Positions 1 through 5,629 of a DNA stretch of 5,857 bases are shown here, one piece after another (the stretch's first letter is position 1; each line of letters opens with the position of its first letter). The translations under genes and the position numbers were made by a program. This DNA is from a virus. Its lineage: Duplodnaviria; Heunggongvirae; Uroviricota; Caudoviricetes. The stretch covers positions 1 through 5,857 of IMG/VR virus record IMGVR_UViG_3300028995_000024, one strand, 5' to 3'. Below the pieces are notes generated by a model. The model was not told the DNA's origin and did not search any database. It saw only the letters and a program-made list of their open reading frames with translations.

Positions 1-911
1 CGAAAAAGGCTTCGTCTAACAACAATTCCTTTAGTGCGATTTACAAGGAATGGTACGAGCACAAGAAGCAAGTCTGGTCAGTAGGATATGCGACTGAACT
101 TGCCAAAATGTTTGATGACGACATTTTGCCCATCATCGGCGGTCTTGAGATTCAGGATATTGAGCCGATGCAACTGCTGGAAGTAATCCGCAGATTTGAA
201 GATCGCGGTGCAATGGAGCGAGCAAATAAAGCCCGCAGAAGATGCGGCGAGGTTTTCCGTTACGCTATTGTCACTGGTAGGGCTAAATATAACCCGGCAC
301 CTGACCTTGCTGACGCCATGAAGGGATACCGCAAGAAGAACTTCCCGTTTTTACCTGCCGACCAGATCCCGGCATTCAACAAAGCACTTGCAACATTTTC
401 AGGAAGTATCGTATCGCTCATTGCGACCAAAGTTTTACGCTACACAGCCCTAAGAACGAAAGAGCTTCGTTCCATGCAATGGAAGAACGTCGATTTTGAA
501 AACAGGATTATCACCATCGACGCCAGTGTGATGAAGGGACGCAAAATTCATGTGGTCCCGATGTCAGACCAGGTGGTTGAACTTCTCACTACGCTAAGCT
601 CAATCACCAAACCAGTATCAGAGTTTGTTTTTGCCGGGCGCAACGATAAGAAGAAGCCAATCTGCGAGAACGCGGTATTGCTTGTGATCAAACAAATCGG
701 CTATGAGGGTCTGGAAAGCGGTCATGGATTCAGGCATGAATTCAGCACAATTATGAACGAGCACGAATGGCCTGCTGACGCTATTGAAGTGCAACTGGCA
801 CATGCCAACGGCGGATCTGTGCGTGGTATTTACAACCATGCTCAGTATCTCGATAAACGCAGAGAAATGATGCAATGGTGGGCGGACTGGCTTGAGGAGA
901 AGGTATCATAG
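1..911 (+). CDS. int: Tyrosine site-specific integrase (phage/P4-like family), 5'-partial; the N-terminus lies upstream of the window
   Basis: The reading frame is open from the window edge (first full codon at nt 3) to TAG at 909-911. Translation upstream of the ORF-track ATG at 108 stays open (...KKASSNNNSFSAIYKEWYEHKKQVWSVGYATELAK-MFDDD...), so that ATG is internal. Catalytic-domain signatures of tyrosine recombinases are present: LRTKELR (box I Arg), HGFRHEF (H-x-x-R box II) and RGIYNHAQYL (catalytic Tyr), ending in MMQWWADWL. Confidence 0.9.
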   Translation, partial: KKASSNNNSFSAIYKEWYEHKKQVWSVGYATELAKMFDDDILPIIGGLEIQDIEPMQLLEVIRRFEDRGAMERANKARRRCGEVFRYAIVTGRAKYNPAPDLADAMKGYRKKNFPFLPADQIPAFNKALATFSGSIVSLIATKVLRYTALRTKELRSMQWKNVDFENRIITIDASVMKGRKIHVVPMSDQVVELLTTLSSITKPVSEFVFAGRNDKKKPICENAVLLVIKQIGYEGLESGHGFRHEFSTIMNEHEWPADAIEVQLAHANGGSVRGIYNHAQYLDKRREMMQWWADWLEEKVS

Positions 912-946: not shown

Positions 947-1059
947 CTTTGTGTGTCCAGTTTTTGTCTCACGCATACAGCTTGAGATGCTAACTGGTCG
1001 ATCATCCAAGCTCTTAGTGGTAGACTCACCGCACACTTTTATCAGCGATTAATCATGAA

Positions 1060-1242
1060 ATGAAACTATCACTTGATAACCTCGTCCGCTTTGCTTCTTT
1101 AATGTGCGTAGCTGGCCTTCTAACTGGTTACCGTTCAAGATATCCATCACTACAGGTGATAGAGATACTCATGCTGGCGGTTTGGCTGCATCAGGACTAT
1201 CCTCACATCAAGAGCATCATAGAAAATAATAAAAAACAATAA
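1060..1242 (+). CDS. Hypothetical small protein (60 aa), doubtful; possibly a small membrane peptide or gene remnant upstream of the acyltransferase
   Basis: ATG-initiated ORF in the int-acyltransferase intergenic region with two short hydrophobic stretches (FASLMCVAGLLTG, VIEILMLAVWL). I recognise no family and see no convincing ribosome-binding site. It lies in the same orientation as, and 17 bp upstream of, the acyltransferase gene. Confidence 0.2.
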   Translation: MKLSLDNLVRFASLMCVAGLLTGYRSRYPSLQVIEILMLAVWLHQDYPHIKSIIENNKKQ

Positions 1243-1259
1243 TTCAATTCAGGTCAACA

Positions 1260-2327
1260 ATGAATAGCAAAATTTTATCAGTGCATTACATGAGGGCTTT
1301 GGCCTCCATCGCGGTGTTAATAGATCATTTCTCAGGTCTATTGGTTATCAATGGGAATCCAATTCCATTTTTATCGAGAGGTGGATTTGGAGTAGATCTT
1401 TTCTACATTATTAGTGGATTTATCATCTACATTTCGTCAGGAAACAAAGATAATAACAAACCTATAAAATTCATACTAAAGCGATTTTTCAGAATTTATC
1501 CATTATTCATCGTTGCATGGATAATAGGGATGTCATTTGTGTTCAAGAGTGACAGCGTATGGTCATTTTTAGAGCCGCTACTATTGGTATATCAAAATTA
1601 TAATGGAATGGCCCCTCAGTTCGGTACCCATGTTATGGGAACCCCATGGACACTGGCTTACGAACTACTCTTTTACGCAATTTTTGTTTTAGCTATTTCA
1701 ATAACTCACAAGCACCGGGCGGCATTATCAATAGCGATACTGATCCTAATGCCGATATCACTACAACTAATATTCAACGATTCATTCTCCATTCAGAGTT
1801 CTGCATTTGCCAATGCAAGTAAAGACATTCCTATGTATGGAGTAATTAGAATGGCAAGTGGAACAATAATGTTTGAGTTTGCTATAGGAATTTTATTAGG
1901 TGTTTCCTTCAAGAAAATGAAGAAGATTGATATAACACAAAGCGCATCTACGTTATTCTTCTATTCTGGGGTAATGATATCTATTGCAATACTTATTACC
2001 AACGGAAATCAGATTTCTAAATTTGGTTTGCAAGGCTATTTCATTCCGTCAATTGTTCTTTTTATATCGTTTTTCTTCAGGGATAAAACATCAAATATAA
2101 AACACAATGGATTCCTGGAGTTCTTCGGAAATATTTCATACTCGCTGTACATCACACATTTCATAATTTATGTATGGATAGTTCAGCATCTTGACAGGGT
2201 ATGGATGGAACCGGTTAGGGGGTACCCTATAGTTATTATCGGAATGGTTGCAAGCATTATATTCTCTTGGTGTTGTTATGTCTTTGTAGAGAAACCATTC
2301 ATAAAAGTCGGCAAGCGATATTTATAA
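1260..2327 (+). CDS. Acyltransferase family 3 integral membrane protein (Oac/OafA-like carbohydrate O-acyltransferase); candidate O-antigen/LPS O-acetyltransferase
   Basis: 355-aa ORF that is hydrophobic throughout, with about 10 predicted transmembrane segments. Family-typical motifs are present: N-terminal R-x-L-A-x-I-A-V-x-x-x-H (RALASIAVLIDHF), GVDLFYIISGF, KRFFRIYPLF, WTLAYELLFY and C-terminal GNISYSLYITHF. A weak AGGT ribosome-binding site lies ~5 nt before the ATG. The gene is markedly AT-rich (about 25-35% G+C in sampled lines) against ~47% in int and ~55-60% in the tail genes. Confidence 0.85.
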   Translation: MNSKILSVHYMRALASIAVLIDHFSGLLVINGNPIPFLSRGGFGVDLFYIISGFIIYISSGNKDNNKPIKFILKRFFRIYPLFIVAWIIGMSFVFKSDSVWSFLEPLLLVYQNYNGMAPQFGTHVMGTPWTLAYELLFYAIFVLAISITHKHRAALSIAILILMPISLQLIFNDSFSIQSSAFANASKDIPMYGVIRMASGTIMFEFAIGILLGVSFKKMKKIDITQSASTLFFYSGVMISIAILITNGNQISKFGLQGYFIPSIVLFISFFFRDKTSNIKHNGFLEFFGNISYSLYITHFIIYVWIVQHLDRVWMEPVRGYPIVIIGMVASIIFSWCCYVFVEKPFIKVGKRYL

Positions 2328-2347
2328 AAATAGCGTCCATAAGGACT

Positions 2348-2379
2348 AATGCCAGTCAGTTAAGCAACTGACTGGCATT
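2348..2379 (+). terminator. Perfect 14-bp inverted repeat with 4-nt loop (AATGCCAGTCAGTT-aagc-AACTGACTGGCATT) 21 bp after the acyltransferase stop; possible terminator or RNA 3' stability hairpin
   Basis: The two arms are exact reverse complements, read directly. No U-tract follows (the next bases are acggcaatcagg), so it is not a canonical intrinsic terminator. The call rests on position and stem strength only. Confidence 0.35.
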
Positions 2380-2435
2380 ACGGCAATCAGGAGGGATATC
2401 CGATTTTGACAGAGCAACCATCTTTATCAAAATAA

Positions 2436-2663
2436 AACCTTATTGCATTGGCGGATTTGAAAAAAAGAAAACTTATTAATGAAGCCAACGAGCACATGAA
2501 CAGAAGACAATGGCCTGGTAAAGCGGCCATTGGTCGTCTGAAAGGTGAGAAACTGGCGCAATATAATTTGTGGCTGGATTATCTGGACGCACTGGAACTG
2601 GTTGATACCTCCAGTGCTCCAGATATTGAATGGCCTACGCCTCCGGCAGTTCAGGCCAGATGA
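2436..2663 (+). pseudogene. Tail-fibre assembly protein (Tfa/Mu-U family), C-terminal ~75-codon fragment, 5'-truncated
   Basis: The frame opens immediately after a TAA at 2433-2435 and has no in-frame ATG; the ORF track starts it at a TTG at 2448. The translation ends ...KLAQYNLWLDYLDALELVDTSSAPDIEWPTPPAVQAR, the characteristic Tfa C-terminus (DTSxAPDxxWP). The sequence upstream is unrelated and AT-rich, so the N-terminal part of the gene is missing. Confidence 0.7.
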
Positions 2664-3228
2664 CATCCGGCGCGGTGCTGGTATCTGTTGCCGTCACCGC
2701 GTCAATGTAATCCAGCACGGCGTTAAGTCGGGTGGTCTCTGCCTGCATCAGCTTCCGCCCGGCCTGTAATTTCAGCTGAATCAGACTAATGGAAGCCATT
2801 GCTGCATCAATCAGTGACTGGCGCTGTGCTTCCGCCACTTCTACTACGGCACCGTGTTGTGCCTCAGTATCTGTCACCCATTTCTCACCATCCCATTCAT
2901 CGTATGGTGTTAACGGTGAAAGCGTGACATAATCGTCTTTGATGGCACCGATATAATCCACTGTAACAGCTGCACCATTTTCTGTTGAGTAAACAGTCTC
3001 ATTGCGATGGTCTTCTTCATGGCTCCATCCCTTACCCGTAAATACTGCCACTTTCCCCGGAATGTTTTCGCCAGGGTCAATACCAGTGGAACAGGCGGGC
3101 ATACTTACGCCAGTATTAATATATTCATCAGACCAGCCAGTATATTCATACGTTACTGCATCATAATAAAAACAACGCATATCGCCCGGCACTGTAGCCA
3201 GCCCATTTTCATCAAAAACAGGTTTCAT
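2635..3228 (-). CDS. tfa: Tail-fibre assembly protein (Tfa/Mu-U/lambda-Tfa family)
   Basis: 197-aa ORF whose C-terminus ...RLNAVLDYIDAVTATDTSTAPDVIWPELPEA matches the Tfa family signature. Its ATG (3228..3226) overlaps the stop of the upstream tail-fibre gene as TAATG, indicating translational coupling. It lies immediately 3' of a tail-fibre gene, as expected for this family. Confidence 0.85.
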   Translation of the reverse strand: MKPVFDENGLATVPGDMRCFYYDAVTYEYTGWSDEYINTGVSMPACSTGIDPGENIPGKVAVFTGKGWSHEEDHRNETVYSTENGAAVTVDYIGAIKDDYVTLSPLTPYDEWDGEKWVTDTEAQHGAVVEVAEAQRQSLIDAAMASISLIQLKLQAGRKLMQAETTRLNAVLDYIDAVTATDTSTAPDVIWPELPEA

Positions 3229-3992
3229 TATTTAGCCCTCACCAGAAAGTTAAACGCGATATTACGAGGACGTGTTTCACTTGCAGTTTTCGTTTCAATG
3301 GCACTATCAATAGAGAAATGCTGCAAATCCTGAGATGCAGCACCGTAATTGGTGTAAGAATTAACAAGTGCACCCGCTTTTATTGAGCCAGAGCTACCCA
3401 TAGCTCCCCCCATGAAATTCCCTGTTATACGCTGCTGAGCAAAGTCCTGTGCGCTTAACAACGTGCGACCACCGTCTACACCTCGCCCGTCATCCCAGAT
3501 ACGAATGAAATCACCGCGGGCTTCAGGTAATACCAGCGAAGGAAACACTTTCGCCAGCACAGGATAATCAGAAGCAGAAAATTTCGCCCCGTTGAACTTC
3601 AAAAACACCATACTGGACCAGCTGCCGATTACAGTATTTGGCATTGCAGCGGACGGCCATAAGAACGGAACGCCAATAGCTGGAGCACCTTCTCCCAAAC
3701 CAAGGTTTTCGAGAGCTGTTTTCACCGTACCATCCGATTTGATATCGCCAAACGGATTATTGCGGCTTAACAGCAGCGCACGAAGCGCGGTAAGCAGCTG
3801 GTCGTGCCGCGTCTTCTCAAGACTGGCACCGGATGCCTCCACCACGCTGCAAAGCTCCTCCTGCAACATGTCAAAGTAGTCATCATCCAGAGCGGTGGCA
3901 GGTGTGCCGGTCTGGGGGTTACCACGGGTAAAACCGTTCTTACCCGCGCCGAACTTATCCTTCTGCGCGGTTTTCGTGTCTATACGATGCAT
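3228..3992 (-). CDS. stf: Phage tail-fibre protein (short side tail fibre; conserved N-terminal anchor region plus C-terminal collar-like receptor-binding region)
   Basis: 254-aa ORF. The N-terminus [14 protein letters not shown]...[27 protein letters not shown] resembles the conserved N-terminal region of enterobacterial prophage tail fibres. The C-terminal part contains a motif like the phage tail-collar domain ([33 protein letters not shown]). It sits between a gp48-like baseplate gene and tfa. Confidence 0.8.
3690..3715. other. Candidate DNA-invertase crossover site (hix/gix/pix-like 26-bp dyad) inside the tail-fibre gene
   Basis: TTCTCCCAAACC-AA-GGTTTTCGAGAG consists of two 12-bp half-sites around a 2-bp AA core. 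The left half and the reverse complement of the right half (CTCTCGAAAACC) agree at 9 of 12 positions. Compare hixL TTCTTGAAAACC-AA-GGTTTTTGATAA and gix TTCCTGTAAACC-GA-GGTTTTGGATAA, both recalled from memory. The site encodes residues ~93-101 ([10 protein letters not shown]) of the tail fibre, which is where a constant/variable boundary would be expected. Confidence 0.5.
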
Positions 3993-3995
3993 GGA

Positions 3996-4580
3996 TTACT
4001 CCGGATATTTAAAAATTACGTAGGTATCCCACGGGCAGAGTTTGTTAAGCACGCACTCGACAACGGTGTCCCCCCAGATACGCAGCGCAGAATCACAGGG
4101 ATCGCCACATGTCATCCAGGTGGTGTTGGTGGCGGCTGGCATGTTGACCTGCCAGTAATACCGCCATTCCGGCGCATTCACCGCGTCAGTACAGACCGAT
4201 GAGCAGGTGAACGTGCTTTTGTCGTATCGCGTGATGTTGGCATCTGGTCTGCCCAGGGCAGCAAGCTGTGCAAGATAAAAATTCTCGTTGATGCTGCCCG
4301 CCAGGTTAACCTTCGCATCCAGCCGTTGCTGACGCTGACGAAGGGTCTTTGTCCCTGCGGGAATACATTCATCCGGCAGACCGCACAGACGCTCCCAGCG
4401 GTTTATCAGTTCAGTGGTGGTGCGCGGATCCAGCTCCCGCATCAGGGCATCCGCACGCTGATGAACACGGGTTAATGACGGTGCCGCACCGGCAATCGCC
4501 GGATCGCTGGCTGATCACGCCGGACCGGGGGGCAACAGTGCCGACAACAGACGGATGTAATCATCGTTTGTCACGTCCAT
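3996..4580 (-). pseudogene. Mu gp48-like / DUF2313 (YmfQ-like) baseplate-associated tail protein, interrupted by an in-frame TGA at 4517..4515
   Basis: The ORF track reports only 3996..4442 (148 aa, [26 protein letters not shown]...). The same frame continues upstream for 24 codons ([24 protein letters not shown]) to a TGA. A further 21 codons upstream (MDVTNDDYIRLLSALLPPGPA) start at an ATG at 4580..4578, which has a GGGGA ribosome-binding site ~7 nt upstream and overlaps the stop of the upstream gene. An intact gene would be 194 codons. From memory of the family, the position holding TGA normally holds Trp (TGG) in an LLPPGxAW motif. Confidence 0.7.
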
Positions 4581-5629
4581 GAAATCGTCCCCAGAACCGC
4601 CAGTTCATTTTTTGCAATGGAGATATTGTCTGCCGGTGCAAGCAACTGATGGCTGTATTCCCCGTTCGCACCGGAAATCGCCTCACTGATACGCGATACC
4701 TTCAGTTCTCCCTGCGGATAACCATCACGCAGCAGGAACGAACGCAACTCCGCGGTGATGGCAGCCCGTATTTCCGGTGTGTCCGGCGTCACGCGGATAT
4801 GAAAATCCACCGTATGTGCCACCGGCCTGAACACATACAAATCAGAGCCTGCCACCGGGGCCAGTGGCTCGATATGTTGTCTTGCCGCCGTTTCCGTTGA
4901 TTCTTCCGGAATGGGATTAATCAGGTCACTGCTGGCAATCATCACACCGACAGTTCCCGTTCCCATCCAGTGACGGTATGTCCATGCGCGGGTAATGCCG
5001 GGCACTTCTTTAGCCCAGACGACATAGTCCCCGTCAGCCCCGCCCTGCGGCGTCCAGTAATACCGCTCAATGACGCGGGCGCGCCACGTTTCCAGATCTT
5101 CAGTATCGAATCCGCCAGTCAGGGTATCTGCAACACCGGAAGACGGCAGACCATTAACCGGCGTGACCAGGATTAATGACGTACCGTCGTCAGCGTTACC
5201 GACCGCGCCTGCACTTGAGCAGGCGATCGGCACGCGCAGGACACCACCGGAGCTGGTTGCATCGGCAGTTGCCGTGTACTGAACCAGGTCATCGCGCTGA
5301 ATAACACTCCCGGCGGTCACCTTCAGGCCATCGCTGACACCTTCCCAGCGCATATACCCGCTGGCAGCCGTGGCCCCCTTGCGCGGACACCGTTTCATCG
5401 CAGCATGTCGCGCCAGCCAGGACTCATCGCACAGGTCAGGCAGCATGTTCATTGCCAGATAATCGATGTACCCGTAAACCGTATGCAGCGCCGCCGCATA
5501 CACCTTTGCCCGCACGTCTTCATCCATGCGCCGGAGCGTGTCGCTGACGTCCAGCCTGGCGAATAAATCGTTACGGAGCATACTGATATTTTCTGCCAGC
5601 GTCGGGCGCTGAAATTCACTGTCCGCCAT
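4571..5629 (-). CDS. Baseplate assembly protein J-like (Mu gp47 / P2 gpJ family)
   Basis: 352-aa ORF whose size, position (between a gp46-like and a gp48-like gene, upstream of the tail fibre) and sequence character match baseplate-J family proteins. Its start overlaps the stop of the upstream gene by 14 nt. The family assignment is by recollection of the conserved gp46-gp47-gp48-fibre gene order, not by alignment. Confidence 0.8.
   Translation of the reverse strand: MADSEFQRPTLAENISMLRNDLFARLDVSDTLRRMDEDVRAKVYAAALHTVYGYIDYLAMNMLPDLCDESWLARHAAMKRCPRKGATAASGYMRWEGVSDGLKVTAGSVIQRDDLVQYTATADATSSGGVLRVPIACSSAGAVGNADDGTSLILVTPVNGLPSSGVADTLTGGFDTEDLETWRARVIERYYWTPQGGADGDYVVWAKEVPGITRAWTYRHWMGTGTVGVMIASSDLINPIPEESTETAARQHIEPLAPVAGSDLYVFRPVAHTVDFHIRVTPDTPEIRAAITAELRSFLLRDGYPQGELKVSRISEAISGANGEYSHQLLAPADNISIAKNELAVLGTISWT

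What the first reader, a model, noticed from the sequence alone, without database searches (positions are those of the whole stretch)
3690..3715. Orphan hix/gix-like invertase crossover site inside the tail-fibre gene
A 26-bp imperfect dyad, TTCTCCCAAACC-AA-GGTTTTCGAGAG, closely matches the crossover sites used by Hin/Gin/Cin/Pin serine invertases. In Mu G, P1 C and e14 P segments, this site lies inside the tail-fibre gene at the constant/variable boundary. Here it falls at codons ~93-101 of a 254-codon fibre gene, which is a plausible boundary. I found no second AAACC-nn-GGTTT site and no invertase gene in the window. The simplest reading is a formerly invertible host-range switch locked in one orientation after loss of the distal end. 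The site could still be a substrate for an invertase supplied in trans, which would allow deletions or tail-fibre exchange.
Basis: partly seen in the sequence, partly recalled or inferred. Interest (0 to 1): 0.6.

Follow-up and report, generated by a model that had tools for sequence, protein, structure and literature searches.

The report
Leftover tail-fibre inversion site in prophage
The 26-bp dyad is a real DNA-invertase crossover site, identical to the one in the E. coli e14 prophage, but it is a stranded leftover of a tail-fibre switching cassette whose second site and invertase gene are gone, which is an ordinary and widespread arrangement.

Summary

- **The site.** Window 3690-3715 is 26/26 identical to the crossover site inside stfP of the e14 P segment in E. 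coli K-12. It lies at codons 93-101 of an intact 254-codon tail-fibre gene.
- **Module boundary.** Homology to other fibre genes breaks at the two edges of the site. e14, K-12 CPS-53 and SfV share only the N-terminal side. A P2-like phage shares only the C-terminal side.
- **Intact relatives.** Relatives with complete systems carry the same site paired with an inverted partner next to a serine invertase gene.
- **What is left here.** About 1.3 kb of the roughly 1.8-kb segment survives. It ends in a 3' fragment of the opposing chaperone gene, fused at about 2380 to low-GC cargo (an O-acetyltransferase) and intS.
- **What is missing.** There is no partner site, invertase or enhancer in 45.9 kb.
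- **How common it is.** The same orphan site occurs in K-12 CPS-53 and in phage SfV. Both are frozen in the opposite flip state.
- **Host strain.** It encodes an intact PinQ about 880 kb away, but one site alone cannot recombine.

This is a known kind of element and of low interest.

The parts
3690..3715 (.). Orphan 26-bp invertase crossover site (pix/cix/gix type), TTCTCCCAAACC-AA-GGTTTTCGAGAG. It encodes LENLGLGE in the fibre gene.
   Evidence: It is unique in the window. It is 26/26 identical to the e14 stfP site and to the sites in K-12 CPS-53 yfdL, L002, L006, L009, L010 and SfV orf21. It matches P1 cixL/cixR at 20/26 and Mu gix at 18/26.
3688..3703 (+). 16-bp CCTTCTCCCAAACCAA, identical to the inverted repeat reported to flank the e14 P segment.
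   Evidence: Read directly from the sequence. The repeat is quoted in PMC12529663. In K-12 the two copies enclose exactly 1797 bp (coordinates).
3716..3992 (-). Constant N-terminal module of the tail-fibre gene (codons 1-92), which is the baseplate-proximal part.
   Evidence: It is 93-96% identical to e14 stfP, K-12 yfdL and SfV orf21, and that homology stops at 3685-3689. PHROG families match residues 1 to about 98-105 only.
3228..3689 (-). Variable C-terminal module of the fibre gene (codons 102-254), the receptor-binding half, frozen in this orientation.
   Evidence: Part of it (window 3453-3714, about 94-95% identical) is shared with P2-like phage 500465-2, where homology stops at 3714, and with vB_EcoM-606R2. 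There is a weak Collar-domain hit below the Pfam cut-off, and C-terminal PHROG fibre families match.
2635..3228 (-). Intact tail-fibre assembly chaperone (197 aa) serving the expressed fibre, equivalent to U/TfaP.
   Evidence: Pfam Caudo_TAP E=1.9e-26 and phrog_105 E=1.2e-81. Annotated as a tail fiber assembly protein.
2383..2663 (+). 3' fragment of the convergent second chaperone gene (U'/tfa'), lacking its first ~46 codons. It is the last remnant of the distal half of the invertible segment.
   Evidence: RefSeq annotates a pseudogene missing its N-terminus at 2442-2663. Caudo_TAP profile positions 68-130 of 131 are matched. Homology to the complete tfa' of L002 starts at 2383, which corresponds to L002 6001 in a gene spanning 5862-6281.
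1001..2382 (+). Low-GC cargo that replaces the distal fibre cassette, partner site and invertase. It holds an O-acetyltransferase-like gene (1260-2327), a 60-aa ORF (1060-1242) and an 11-bp perfect hairpin (2351-2376) abutting the junction.
   Evidence: GC is 33-40% here against 47-61% elsewhere. Acyl_transf_3 E=3.4e-29 and phrog_3333 O-acetyltransferase E=5.7e-52. The anchor stretch 930-2380, which contains this cargo, is present in only 5 of 5426 E. coli genomes.
1..911 (+). 3' part of intS, the integrase of a CPS-53/SfV-like prophage at tRNA-Arg.
   Evidence: Annotation of NZ_CM128588.1.
3996..4580 (-). YmfQ / Mu gp48-like baseplate gene, inactivated by an in-frame TGA at 4517-4515.
   Evidence: Translation. 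Pfam Phage_Mu_Gp48. RefSeq notes an internal stop.
4571..5629 (-). Baseplate J / Mu gp47-like gene upstream of the fibre operon.
   Evidence: Pfam Baseplate_J E=1.1e-53.

Best explanation
The dyad is a real but stranded recombination site of the Din (Pin/Cin/Gin/Hin) DNA-invertase class. It is the proximal end of a P-segment-type invertible tail-fibre cassette.

In complete systems the layout is: fibre constant part | site A | variable part + chaperone > < chaperone' + variable part' | site B | invertase. The invertase, with a Fis-bound enhancer inside its own 5' coding region, flips the roughly 1.8-kb segment. This fuses one or the other receptor-binding C-terminus to the constant N-terminus exactly at the site.

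In this CPS-53/SfV-like prophage at tRNA-Arg, the distal ~0.5 kb of the segment is missing. That loss takes out the 5' part of chaperone', variable part', site B, the invertase gene and its enhancer. A low-GC O-acetyltransferase cargo next to intS sits in their place. The fibre is therefore locked as one intact 254-codon gene with its chaperone. The site now persists only as coding sequence (LENLGLGE) and has no partner to recombine with.

Shown here: the identity of the site, the module boundary, the remnant of the opposing chaperone gene, and the absence of a partner site, invertase or enhancer. Inferred: that inversion once operated in the ancestry of this cassette, and that the site is now inert.
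For: - **Source.** The window is E. coli strain 300033, in a prophage next to tRNA-Arg and intS.
- **Site identity.** The site is 26/26 identical to e14 site A, and the e14 partner lies next to pinE. That pair bounds the 1797-bp P segment inverted by PinE, PinQ and PinR (PMC12529663; PMC4272514).
- **Complete systems.** Paired inverted sites next to an invertase gene, with site A at the homologous place, occur in P2-like phage 500465-2 (full-length invertase). They also occur in vB_EcoM-606R2 and L002, where the invertase ORF is short or truncated.
- **Anchored comparison.** e14, K-12 CPS-53, L009 and L010 match the window at 53-57/60 on the constant side, 26/26 in the site, and 20-22/60 on the variable side. 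The P2-like phage matches at 57/60 on the variable side, 23/26 in the site, and 8/60 on the constant side.
- **Sample of E. coli genomes.** In a spread sample of 59 genomes, 50 have a homology boundary at window 3685-3714.
- **Protein families.** PHROG families split at residues ~98-105.
- **Remnant.** The convergent chaperone fragment at 2383-2663 marks the former distal half.
- **Opposite flip state.** K-12 CPS-53 carries the same constant part and site joined to the other end of the same segment type, with its chaperone block inverted. SfV orf21 likewise has the B-type sequence directly inside the site.
- **Different truncation points.** The window, K-12, L009 and L010 each end at a different point.
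- **Absences.** There is no invertase, partner site or enhancer-like sequence in 45.9 kb. The cargo region has low GC.
Against: No inversion has been observed at this locus. All five genomes with this arrangement are collinear.

Perfect conservation of the 26-mer says little on its own. The flanks are about 94-95% identical, so roughly a quarter of such 26-mers would be unchanged by chance (my arithmetic). The site is also protected by coding constraint.

The cassette could have entered this lineage already truncated, through homologous recombination in the highly conserved chaperone block (2462-2916). In that case this lineage never inverted.

Two pinE-like DNA matches and a second fibre-like locus elsewhere in the same chromosome were not located. 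A distant partner site therefore cannot be excluded.
Confidence: 0.82

Rival explanations
1. The site derives from an invertible cassette, but this prophage lineage never had a working switch. The fibre, chaperone and partial chaperone' block was imported already truncated, or was exchanged by homologous recombination between the conserved constant part or site and the conserved chaperone 3' block.
For: The 2462-2916 block is at least 90% identical across P2-like phages of Escherichia, Klebsiella, Salmonella and Citrobacter, and many hits begin at 2462-2475. It is therefore a likely hotspot for homologous exchange. Prophages at tRNA-Arg show at least four different junctions and three different variable modules on the same constant part. 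A viable phage, SfV, already has the orphan layout.
Against: Homology to a complete cassette extends to 2383, beyond the conserved block. This looks like a deletion endpoint rather than a recombination edge. The two frozen flip states are explained most simply by ancestors that inverted.
Confidence: 0.12
2. The site is still active. An invertase made elsewhere in the cell (PinQ, or a PinE-like enzyme) pairs it with a site in another prophage or an infecting phage. The result would be large chromosomal inversions or deletions, or swapping of fibre modules.
For: Strain 300033 encodes an intact PinQ, 194/196 identical to K-12 PinQ. PMC12529663 reports that K-12 PinQ inverts the e14 segment, which carries this same site, in trans. 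Two more pinE-like DNA matches and a second fibre-like locus exist in the same chromosome. The mosaic boundaries sit exactly at the site edges.
Against: The invertasome needs two sites and a Fis-bound enhancer on one supercoiled molecule, and it enforces intramolecular inversion (PMC3798978). No enhancer-like sequence or partner lies within 45.9 kb, and no site lies near pinQ. pinQ is about 880 kb away. e14 is absent from this strain. PMC12529663 found inversions only in e14 when probing with CPS-53, Qin and rac. All five genomes with this arrangement are collinear.
Confidence: 0.05
3. The dyad is a chance palindrome, or simply a conserved coding motif, with no link to site-specific recombination.
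For: The 12-nt core with 2 mismatches is no more frequent than chance. The sequence encodes a conserved LGLGE motif.
Against: The full 26-mer gave 0 of 200 shuffles. It is 26/26 identical to an experimentally used crossover site (PMC12529663). Homology breakpoints lie at its edges. A remnant of the opposing cassette lies next to it.
Confidence: 0.01

Closest known systems
e14 P segment of E. coli K-12 (stfP/ycfK - tfaP - tfaE - stfE - pinE)
   Same: The 26-bp site is identical. The constant fibre part and ymfQ are 94.5% identical. The site is at the same codon position (93-101) and there is the same pair of convergent chaperone genes.
   Different: e14 keeps the partner site and pinE and still inverts (PMC4272514, PMC12529663). 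The window has lost both. The variable module here is unrelated to e14's (20/60 identity just inside the site). The element sits at tRNA-Arg, not at icd.
CPS-53 (KplE1) cryptic prophage of K-12 (intS - gtrABS - 'tfaS - yfdK - yfdL) and Shigella serotype-converting phages SfV/SfI/SfII/SfIV
   Same: K-12 CPS-53 is at the same integration site, and its integrase gene carries the same name (intS). All share the Mu-like baseplate genes. In all of them O-antigen-modifying cargo lies between int and the fibre genes, the orphan 26-bp site is identical, and no invertase is seen in the stretches examined.
   Different: The cargo here is an acyltransferase rather than gtrABC. In K-12 CPS-53 the fibre variable part and chaperone block are those of the opposite flip state of the segment, and in SfV the sequence just inside the site is of that type. 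The truncation point also differs.
Mu G segment/Gin and P1 C segment/Cin
   Same: The logic is the same: a crossover site inside the fibre gene S at the constant/variable junction. The reading frame and xxN/YLGLxE peptide are the same. The conserved core is AAACC-NN-GGTTT in gix and cixL, with one core mismatch in cixR.
   Different: Identity to the sites is only 18-20/26. Mu and P1 have both sites, the invertase and an enhancer inside the invertase gene (annotated in the P1 record). None of these is present here.
P2-like phage 500465-2 and vB_EcoM-606R2 invertible fibre cassettes
   Same: The variable part, chaperone and chaperone' block is the same at 91-95% identity, with site A at the homologous position.
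   Different: Both retain site B and an annotated DNA invertase gene (full-length only in 500465-2). In 500465-2 the constant part is P2 H-like and unrelated (8/60).

Membership tests
Din-type (Pin/Cin/Gin/Hin) invertible tail-fibre segment | 26-bp imperfect dyad crossover site with an AAACC-NN-GGTTT core | tested here: met
   It is 26/26 identical to e14 site A, 20/26 to the annotated P1 cixL/cixR and 18/26 to Mu gix. Dyad symmetry is 9/12. The hix sequence was not retrieved, so that comparison rests on memory only.
Din-type (Pin/Cin/Gin/Hin) invertible tail-fibre segment | Site lies in the fibre gene at the constant/variable junction, in frame | tested here: met
   Homology breaks at 3685-3689 on one side and 3708-3714 on the other. 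The peptide LENLGLGE aligns with IQNLGLQE in Mu and IQYLGLRE in P1.
Din-type (Pin/Cin/Gin/Hin) invertible tail-fibre segment | Second site in inverted orientation on the same DNA | tested here: not met
   No match to any of six known sites with 6 or fewer of 26 mismatches was found in 45.9 kb around the window. The same holds for the Qin-site, Rac-like and icd stretches examined, a further ~113 kb. The rest of the chromosome was not scanned.
Din-type (Pin/Cin/Gin/Hin) invertible tail-fibre segment | Adjacent serine invertase gene | tested here: not met
   No recombinase other than intS is annotated in 45.9 kb. tblastn with PinE, PinQ and Gin gives no hit at E<=1.
Din-type (Pin/Cin/Gin/Hin) invertible tail-fibre segment | Fis-dependent recombinational enhancer in cis, normally within the 5' end of the invertase gene | tested here: not met
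   The region homologous to the annotated P1 enhancer is conserved in pinE, gin and the invertases of L005 and L002 (54-57/72). It has no counterpart in L001, where the best ungapped match is 36/72. Fis binding itself cannot be tested with these tools.
Din-type (Pin/Cin/Gin/Hin) invertible tail-fibre segment | Two alternative fibre C-termini, each with its own chaperone, in opposite orientation | tested here: not met
   One complete set is present (3228-3689 plus 2635-3228). Only the last ~93 codons of the opposing chaperone survive (2383-2663), and there is no second variable part.
Din-type (Pin/Cin/Gin/Hin) invertible tail-fibre segment | Both orientations observed in a population | not testable with these tools
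   This needs reads or PCR. Indirect evidence: the five genomes with this arrangement are collinear, while K-12 CPS-53 carries the other flip state frozen and SfV has the B-type sequence just inside its site.
SfV / CPS-53 (KplE1)-like serotype-converting prophage | Integration next to tRNA-Arg with an IntS integrase | tested here: met
   tRNA-Arg, then intS, then the window's genes in NZ_CM128588.1. The order is the same in K-12.
SfV / CPS-53 (KplE1)-like serotype-converting prophage | O-antigen-modifying cargo between int and the tail-fibre genes | tested here: met
   Low-GC acyltransferase gene with Acyl_transf_3 and phrog O-acetyltransferase hits. SfV and K-12 carry gtrABC-type genes at the same place. 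Activity on O antigen is inferred, not tested.
SfV / CPS-53 (KplE1)-like serotype-converting prophage | Mu-like baseplate genes (gp46/47/48) upstream of the fibre gene | tested here: met
   Pfam Baseplate_J and Phage_Mu_Gp48 hits. The region is 95.5% identical to SfV over 3690-4580.

The most novel reading that the evidence does not exclude
The orphan site is not inert. PinQ is encoded ~880 kb away and is reported to act in trans on the identical e14 site. PinQ, or the unlocated PinE-like enzymes, could occasionally synapse this site with a site on an infecting or resident phage. The defective prophage would then serve as a reservoir from which receptor-binding fibre modules are exchanged by site-specific rather than homologous recombination. 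That would also explain why mosaic boundaries in about 2000 E. coli genomes fall exactly at the edges of the 26-mer.
Probability: 0.07. Interest if true: 0.45.

Novelty: new member of a known kind. Interest (0 to 1): 0.15.

Why it matters
It matters little beyond annotation. The result shows that the "hypothetical protein" at 3228-3992 is a tail fibre built from a constant e14/SfV-type N-terminus and a swappable C-terminus. It also shows that the short chaperone pseudogene beside it is the scar of a lost host-range switch.

The comparison adds a tidy illustration. K-12 CPS-53 and this prophage preserve the two opposite flip states of the same cassette, each truncated at a different point next to different O-antigen cargo. 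SfV's fibre gene has the same inner junction as K-12 CPS-53. This indicates repeated replacement of the invertase end by cargo genes in this phage family.

The only route to a larger finding would be evidence that such orphan sites are used by trans-acting invertases such as PinQ.

Tried and rejected
- **Chance match: rejected**.
- **Partner site or invertase in the window or nearby.** I searched by mismatch scan, half-site scan, distance to six known sites, blastn with the pinE region, and tblastn with PinE, PinQ and Gin. Nothing was found.
- **Invertases elsewhere in the strain.** I used a chimeric query made of a strain-specific anchor plus pinE. It showed two extra matches in the chromosome of strain 300033 at E<=1e-15, presumably to the pinE part, since the anchor is rare. 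The tool reports only the best place per record, so I could not get their coordinates.
- **Walking the chromosome by gene order.** e14 is absent: icd is followed directly by iraM. The Rac-like prophage ends in sitABCD with no pinR. The prfC site, which is occupied in L002, is empty. A Qin-site lambdoid prophage has an intact pinQ. The second fibre-like locus and the two pinE-like matches remain unlocated.
- **Literature.** Plasterk & van de Putte 1985 (PMC554175) and Mehta et al. 2004 (PMC331406) are not held. They are cited only through the reference list of PMC4272514. The hix sequence was not in PMC3798978, so no hix comparison is claimed as tested.
- **Searches not run.** I did not run the large protein-database searches or structure prediction. 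The DNA-level evidence had already settled the question.

Full report
**Where the window comes from.** The window is 100% identical to E. coli strain 300033 (NZ_CM128588.1, 1558539-1564395, reverse strand). Only 5 of 5426 complete E. coli genomes carry the whole arrangement.

The annotated context runs as follows:
- tRNA-Arg
- intS
- an acyltransferase gene
- a tail-fibre-assembly pseudogene "missing N-terminus" (+ strand)
- a tail-fibre-assembly gene (-)
- a 254-aa "hypothetical protein" (-)
- a YmfQ-family gene with an internal stop (-)
- baseplate J and gp46 genes, then Mu-like tail genes

Several of the tail genes are pseudogenes, and the large terminase gene runs almost directly into the tail sheath gene. 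This is a defective CPS-53/SfV-like prophage.

Family searches confirm the gene identities:
- Caudo_TAP for both the chaperone and the fragment.
- Acyl_transf_3 and a phage O-acetyltransferase family for the cargo.
- Phage_Mu_Gp48 and Baseplate_J for the baseplate genes.
- Many tail-fibre PHROG families for the 254-aa protein.

**The observation.** TTCTCCCAAACCAAGGTTTTCGAGAG is at 3690-3715. It is unique with up to 3 mismatches, and no match appeared in 200 shuffles. It covers codons 93-101 of the fibre ORF (3992->3228) and encodes LENLGLGE. The 12-nt core alone is not significant.

**Identity of the site.** A half-site scan of fetched loci shows that the 26-mer is identical to the site inside stfP/ycfK of K-12 e14. 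The partner of that site, TTCTCCCAAACCAACGTTTATGAAAA, lies in inverted orientation just upstream of pinE. The 16-bp inner repeats enclose exactly 1797 bp. This matches the P segment and the repeats CCTTCTCCCAAACCAA / TTGGTTTGGGAGAAGG given in PMC12529663. That paper and PMC4272514 document inversion of this segment.

The GenBank records of Mu and P1 mark their segment boundaries and cix sites. Read from those records, gix is TTATCCAAAACC-TC-GGTTTACAGGAA and cixR is TTCTCTTAAACC-AA-GGTATTGGATAA. The window's site matches them at 18/26 and 20/26. In all three fibre genes the site is read in the same frame, as xxN/YLGLxE.

**Is it the constant/variable boundary?** Yes, at base resolution.
- BLAST of the window against e14 stops at 3685, and against K-12 CPS-53 at 3689.
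- Against the P2-like phage 500465-2, homology runs from the variable side and stops at 3714.
- An ungapped comparison anchored on the site gives the following for e14, K-12 CPS-53, L009 and L010: 53-57/60 identical on the constant side, 26/26 in the site, and 20-22/60 on the variable side.
- The same comparison for the P2-like phage gives 57/60 on the variable side, 23/26 in the site, and 8/60 on the constant side.
- In a 59-row sample spread down the ranking of 1995 E. coli records that match the fibre gene, 43 matches begin at window 3685-3706 and 7 end at 3708-3714. Only 9 run through the site.
- PHROG families likewise match either residues 1 to ~98-105 or residues ~72-106 to 253.

**What intact systems look like.**
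- Phage 500465-2 (Peduoviridae) has a fibre gene containing site A, a chaperone, a convergent chaperone', a variable part', site B in inverted orientation, and a full-length DNA invertase.
- vB_EcoM-606R2 and the prfC-linked prophage L002 have the same layout. Both carry the window's exact site A and the e14-type site B. The 606R2 invertase ORF is short, and the L002 invertase is truncated.
- The window aligns with L002 from 2383 to 3269 and from 3445 onward. About 1.3 kb of a roughly 1.78-kb segment therefore survives.
- The break at 2383 falls ~46 codons into chaperone'. It lies immediately after a perfect 11-bp hairpin and a block of 33-40% GC that carries the acyltransferase.

**Frozen flip states.** K-12 CPS-53 carries the identical site in the pseudogene yfdL. 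Relative to the window, its chaperone block is inverted (window 2462-2916 = L004 5281-4825). The sequence just inside its site matches the B-side interior of L002 and L005. SfV is a bona fide serotype-converting phage with the order int - gtrA - gtrB - gtrV - terminator - chaperone - fibre - Mu gp48/47/46 homologues. It has the identical orphan site in orf21 and the same B-type interior just inside it, with no PinE-like ORF in the 12.9 kb examined.

Two further tRNA-Arg prophages, L009 and L010, join the e14 stfE-type variable part to the same constant part and site. Their truncation points differ again, and neither has a partner site or invertase-like sequence in the stretch examined.

The orphan site is therefore a family trait. 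The window and K-12 CPS-53 represent opposite orientations of the same cassette type, each cut off separately beside different cargo.

**Can it still do anything?** According to PMC3798978, invertases of this class work only in an invertasome. This complex consists of two 26-bp sites plus a Fis-bound enhancer on one supercoiled molecule, and it enforces intramolecular inversion.

The P1 record places the enhancer at nt 19-90 of cin. The homologous stretch is conserved in pinE, gin and the invertases of L005 and L002 (54-57/72). It has no counterpart in the 45.9 kb around the window, where the best match is 36/72.

In strain 300033:
- e14 is absent.
- The Rac-like prophage lacks pinR.
- A Qin-site prophage encodes an intact PinQ, 194/196 identical to K-12 PinQ and 38% identical to PinE. 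It is about 880 kb from the site and has no crossover-like sequence near it.
- A chimeric-query search shows two more pinE-like DNA matches in the chromosome, and a second fibre-like locus exists. I could not locate either.

PMC12529663 reports that PinQ inverts e14 in trans. It also reports that no inversions were found when CPS-53 was used as a probe. I conclude that the site is competent in sequence but stranded. Use in trans remains untested and unlikely.

**Comparison and verdict.** The element works like, and descends from, a Pin/Cin/Gin-type fibre switch. As it stands it fails the defining tests for membership, because it has no second site, no invertase, no enhancer and no second cassette. 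It is best filed as a relic of such a system inside an SfV/CPS-53-like prophage.

The finding is ordinary. The same orphan site is present in the K-12 reference genome and in the SfV, SfI, SfII and SfIV phages, although I found no paper that names it as such.

Noticed in passing
window 4515-4517 (within 3996-4580, - strand): The YmfQ / Mu gp48-like baseplate gene has an in-frame TGA at codon 22. Several neighbouring tail genes in L001 are also pseudogenes, and the portal and capsid genes appear to be missing between the terminase and the tail sheath. The prophage is defective even though the fibre and chaperone ORFs are intact.
   Followed up: partly
window 1001-2382: This is a low-GC (33-40%) cargo block. 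It holds an O-acetyltransferase-like gene (1260-2327), an unannotated 60-aa ORF (1060-1242), and a perfect 11-bp hairpin (2351-2376) that ends ~6 bp before the junction with the chaperone fragment. The anchor stretch 930-2380, which contains the block, occurs in only 5 of 5426 E. coli genomes.
   Followed up: partly
window 2462-2916: The convergent, 29-bp-overlapping 3' ends of the two chaperone genes form a ~450-bp block that is at least 90% identical in P2-like phages of Escherichia, Klebsiella, Salmonella and Citrobacter. It is far more conserved than the fibre tips and is a likely hotspot for homologous exchange.
   Followed up: no
window 3270-3452: Inside the variable module, a ~180-bp patch near the fibre C-terminus has no detectable similarity to L002, L005 or L006, although both flanks are 91-95% identical. 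This is a second level of mosaicism in the receptor-binding tip.
   Followed up: no
window 3767: A second recurrent homology boundary lies 52 nt upstream of the site. Some E. coli genomes, including O157:H7 strains, and the vB_EcoM-606R2 group share 3453-3767 and then diverge. This suggests a conserved linker ([16 protein letters not shown]) between different baseplate-attachment domains and the site.
   Followed up: no
NZ_CM128588.1 2442225-2442815 (L017 10226-10816): An intact pinQ, 194/196 identical to K-12 PinQ, sits in a full-length lambdoid prophage at the ydfJ (Qin) site. No crossover-like site lies nearby. The same strain lacks e14, and its Rac-like prophage ends in sitABCD instead of pinR.
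   Followed up: yes
NZ_CM128588.1, position unknown: Two further pinE-like DNA matches (E<=1e-15) and a second locus similar to the fibre gene exist in the chromosome of strain 300033. They could not be located with the tools available.
   Followed up: partly
L002 5086-5430 and L006 2522-2836: In two relatives that keep both crossover sites, the invertase gene is itself truncated or short (115 and 104 codons). Those cassettes are probably locked too unless they are served in trans.
   Followed up: no
L001 38584-41736: A 3.15-kb metallophosphoesterase gene is encoded on the opposite strand among the lysis and regulatory genes of the prophage. It may be a cargo or defence gene.
   Followed up: no
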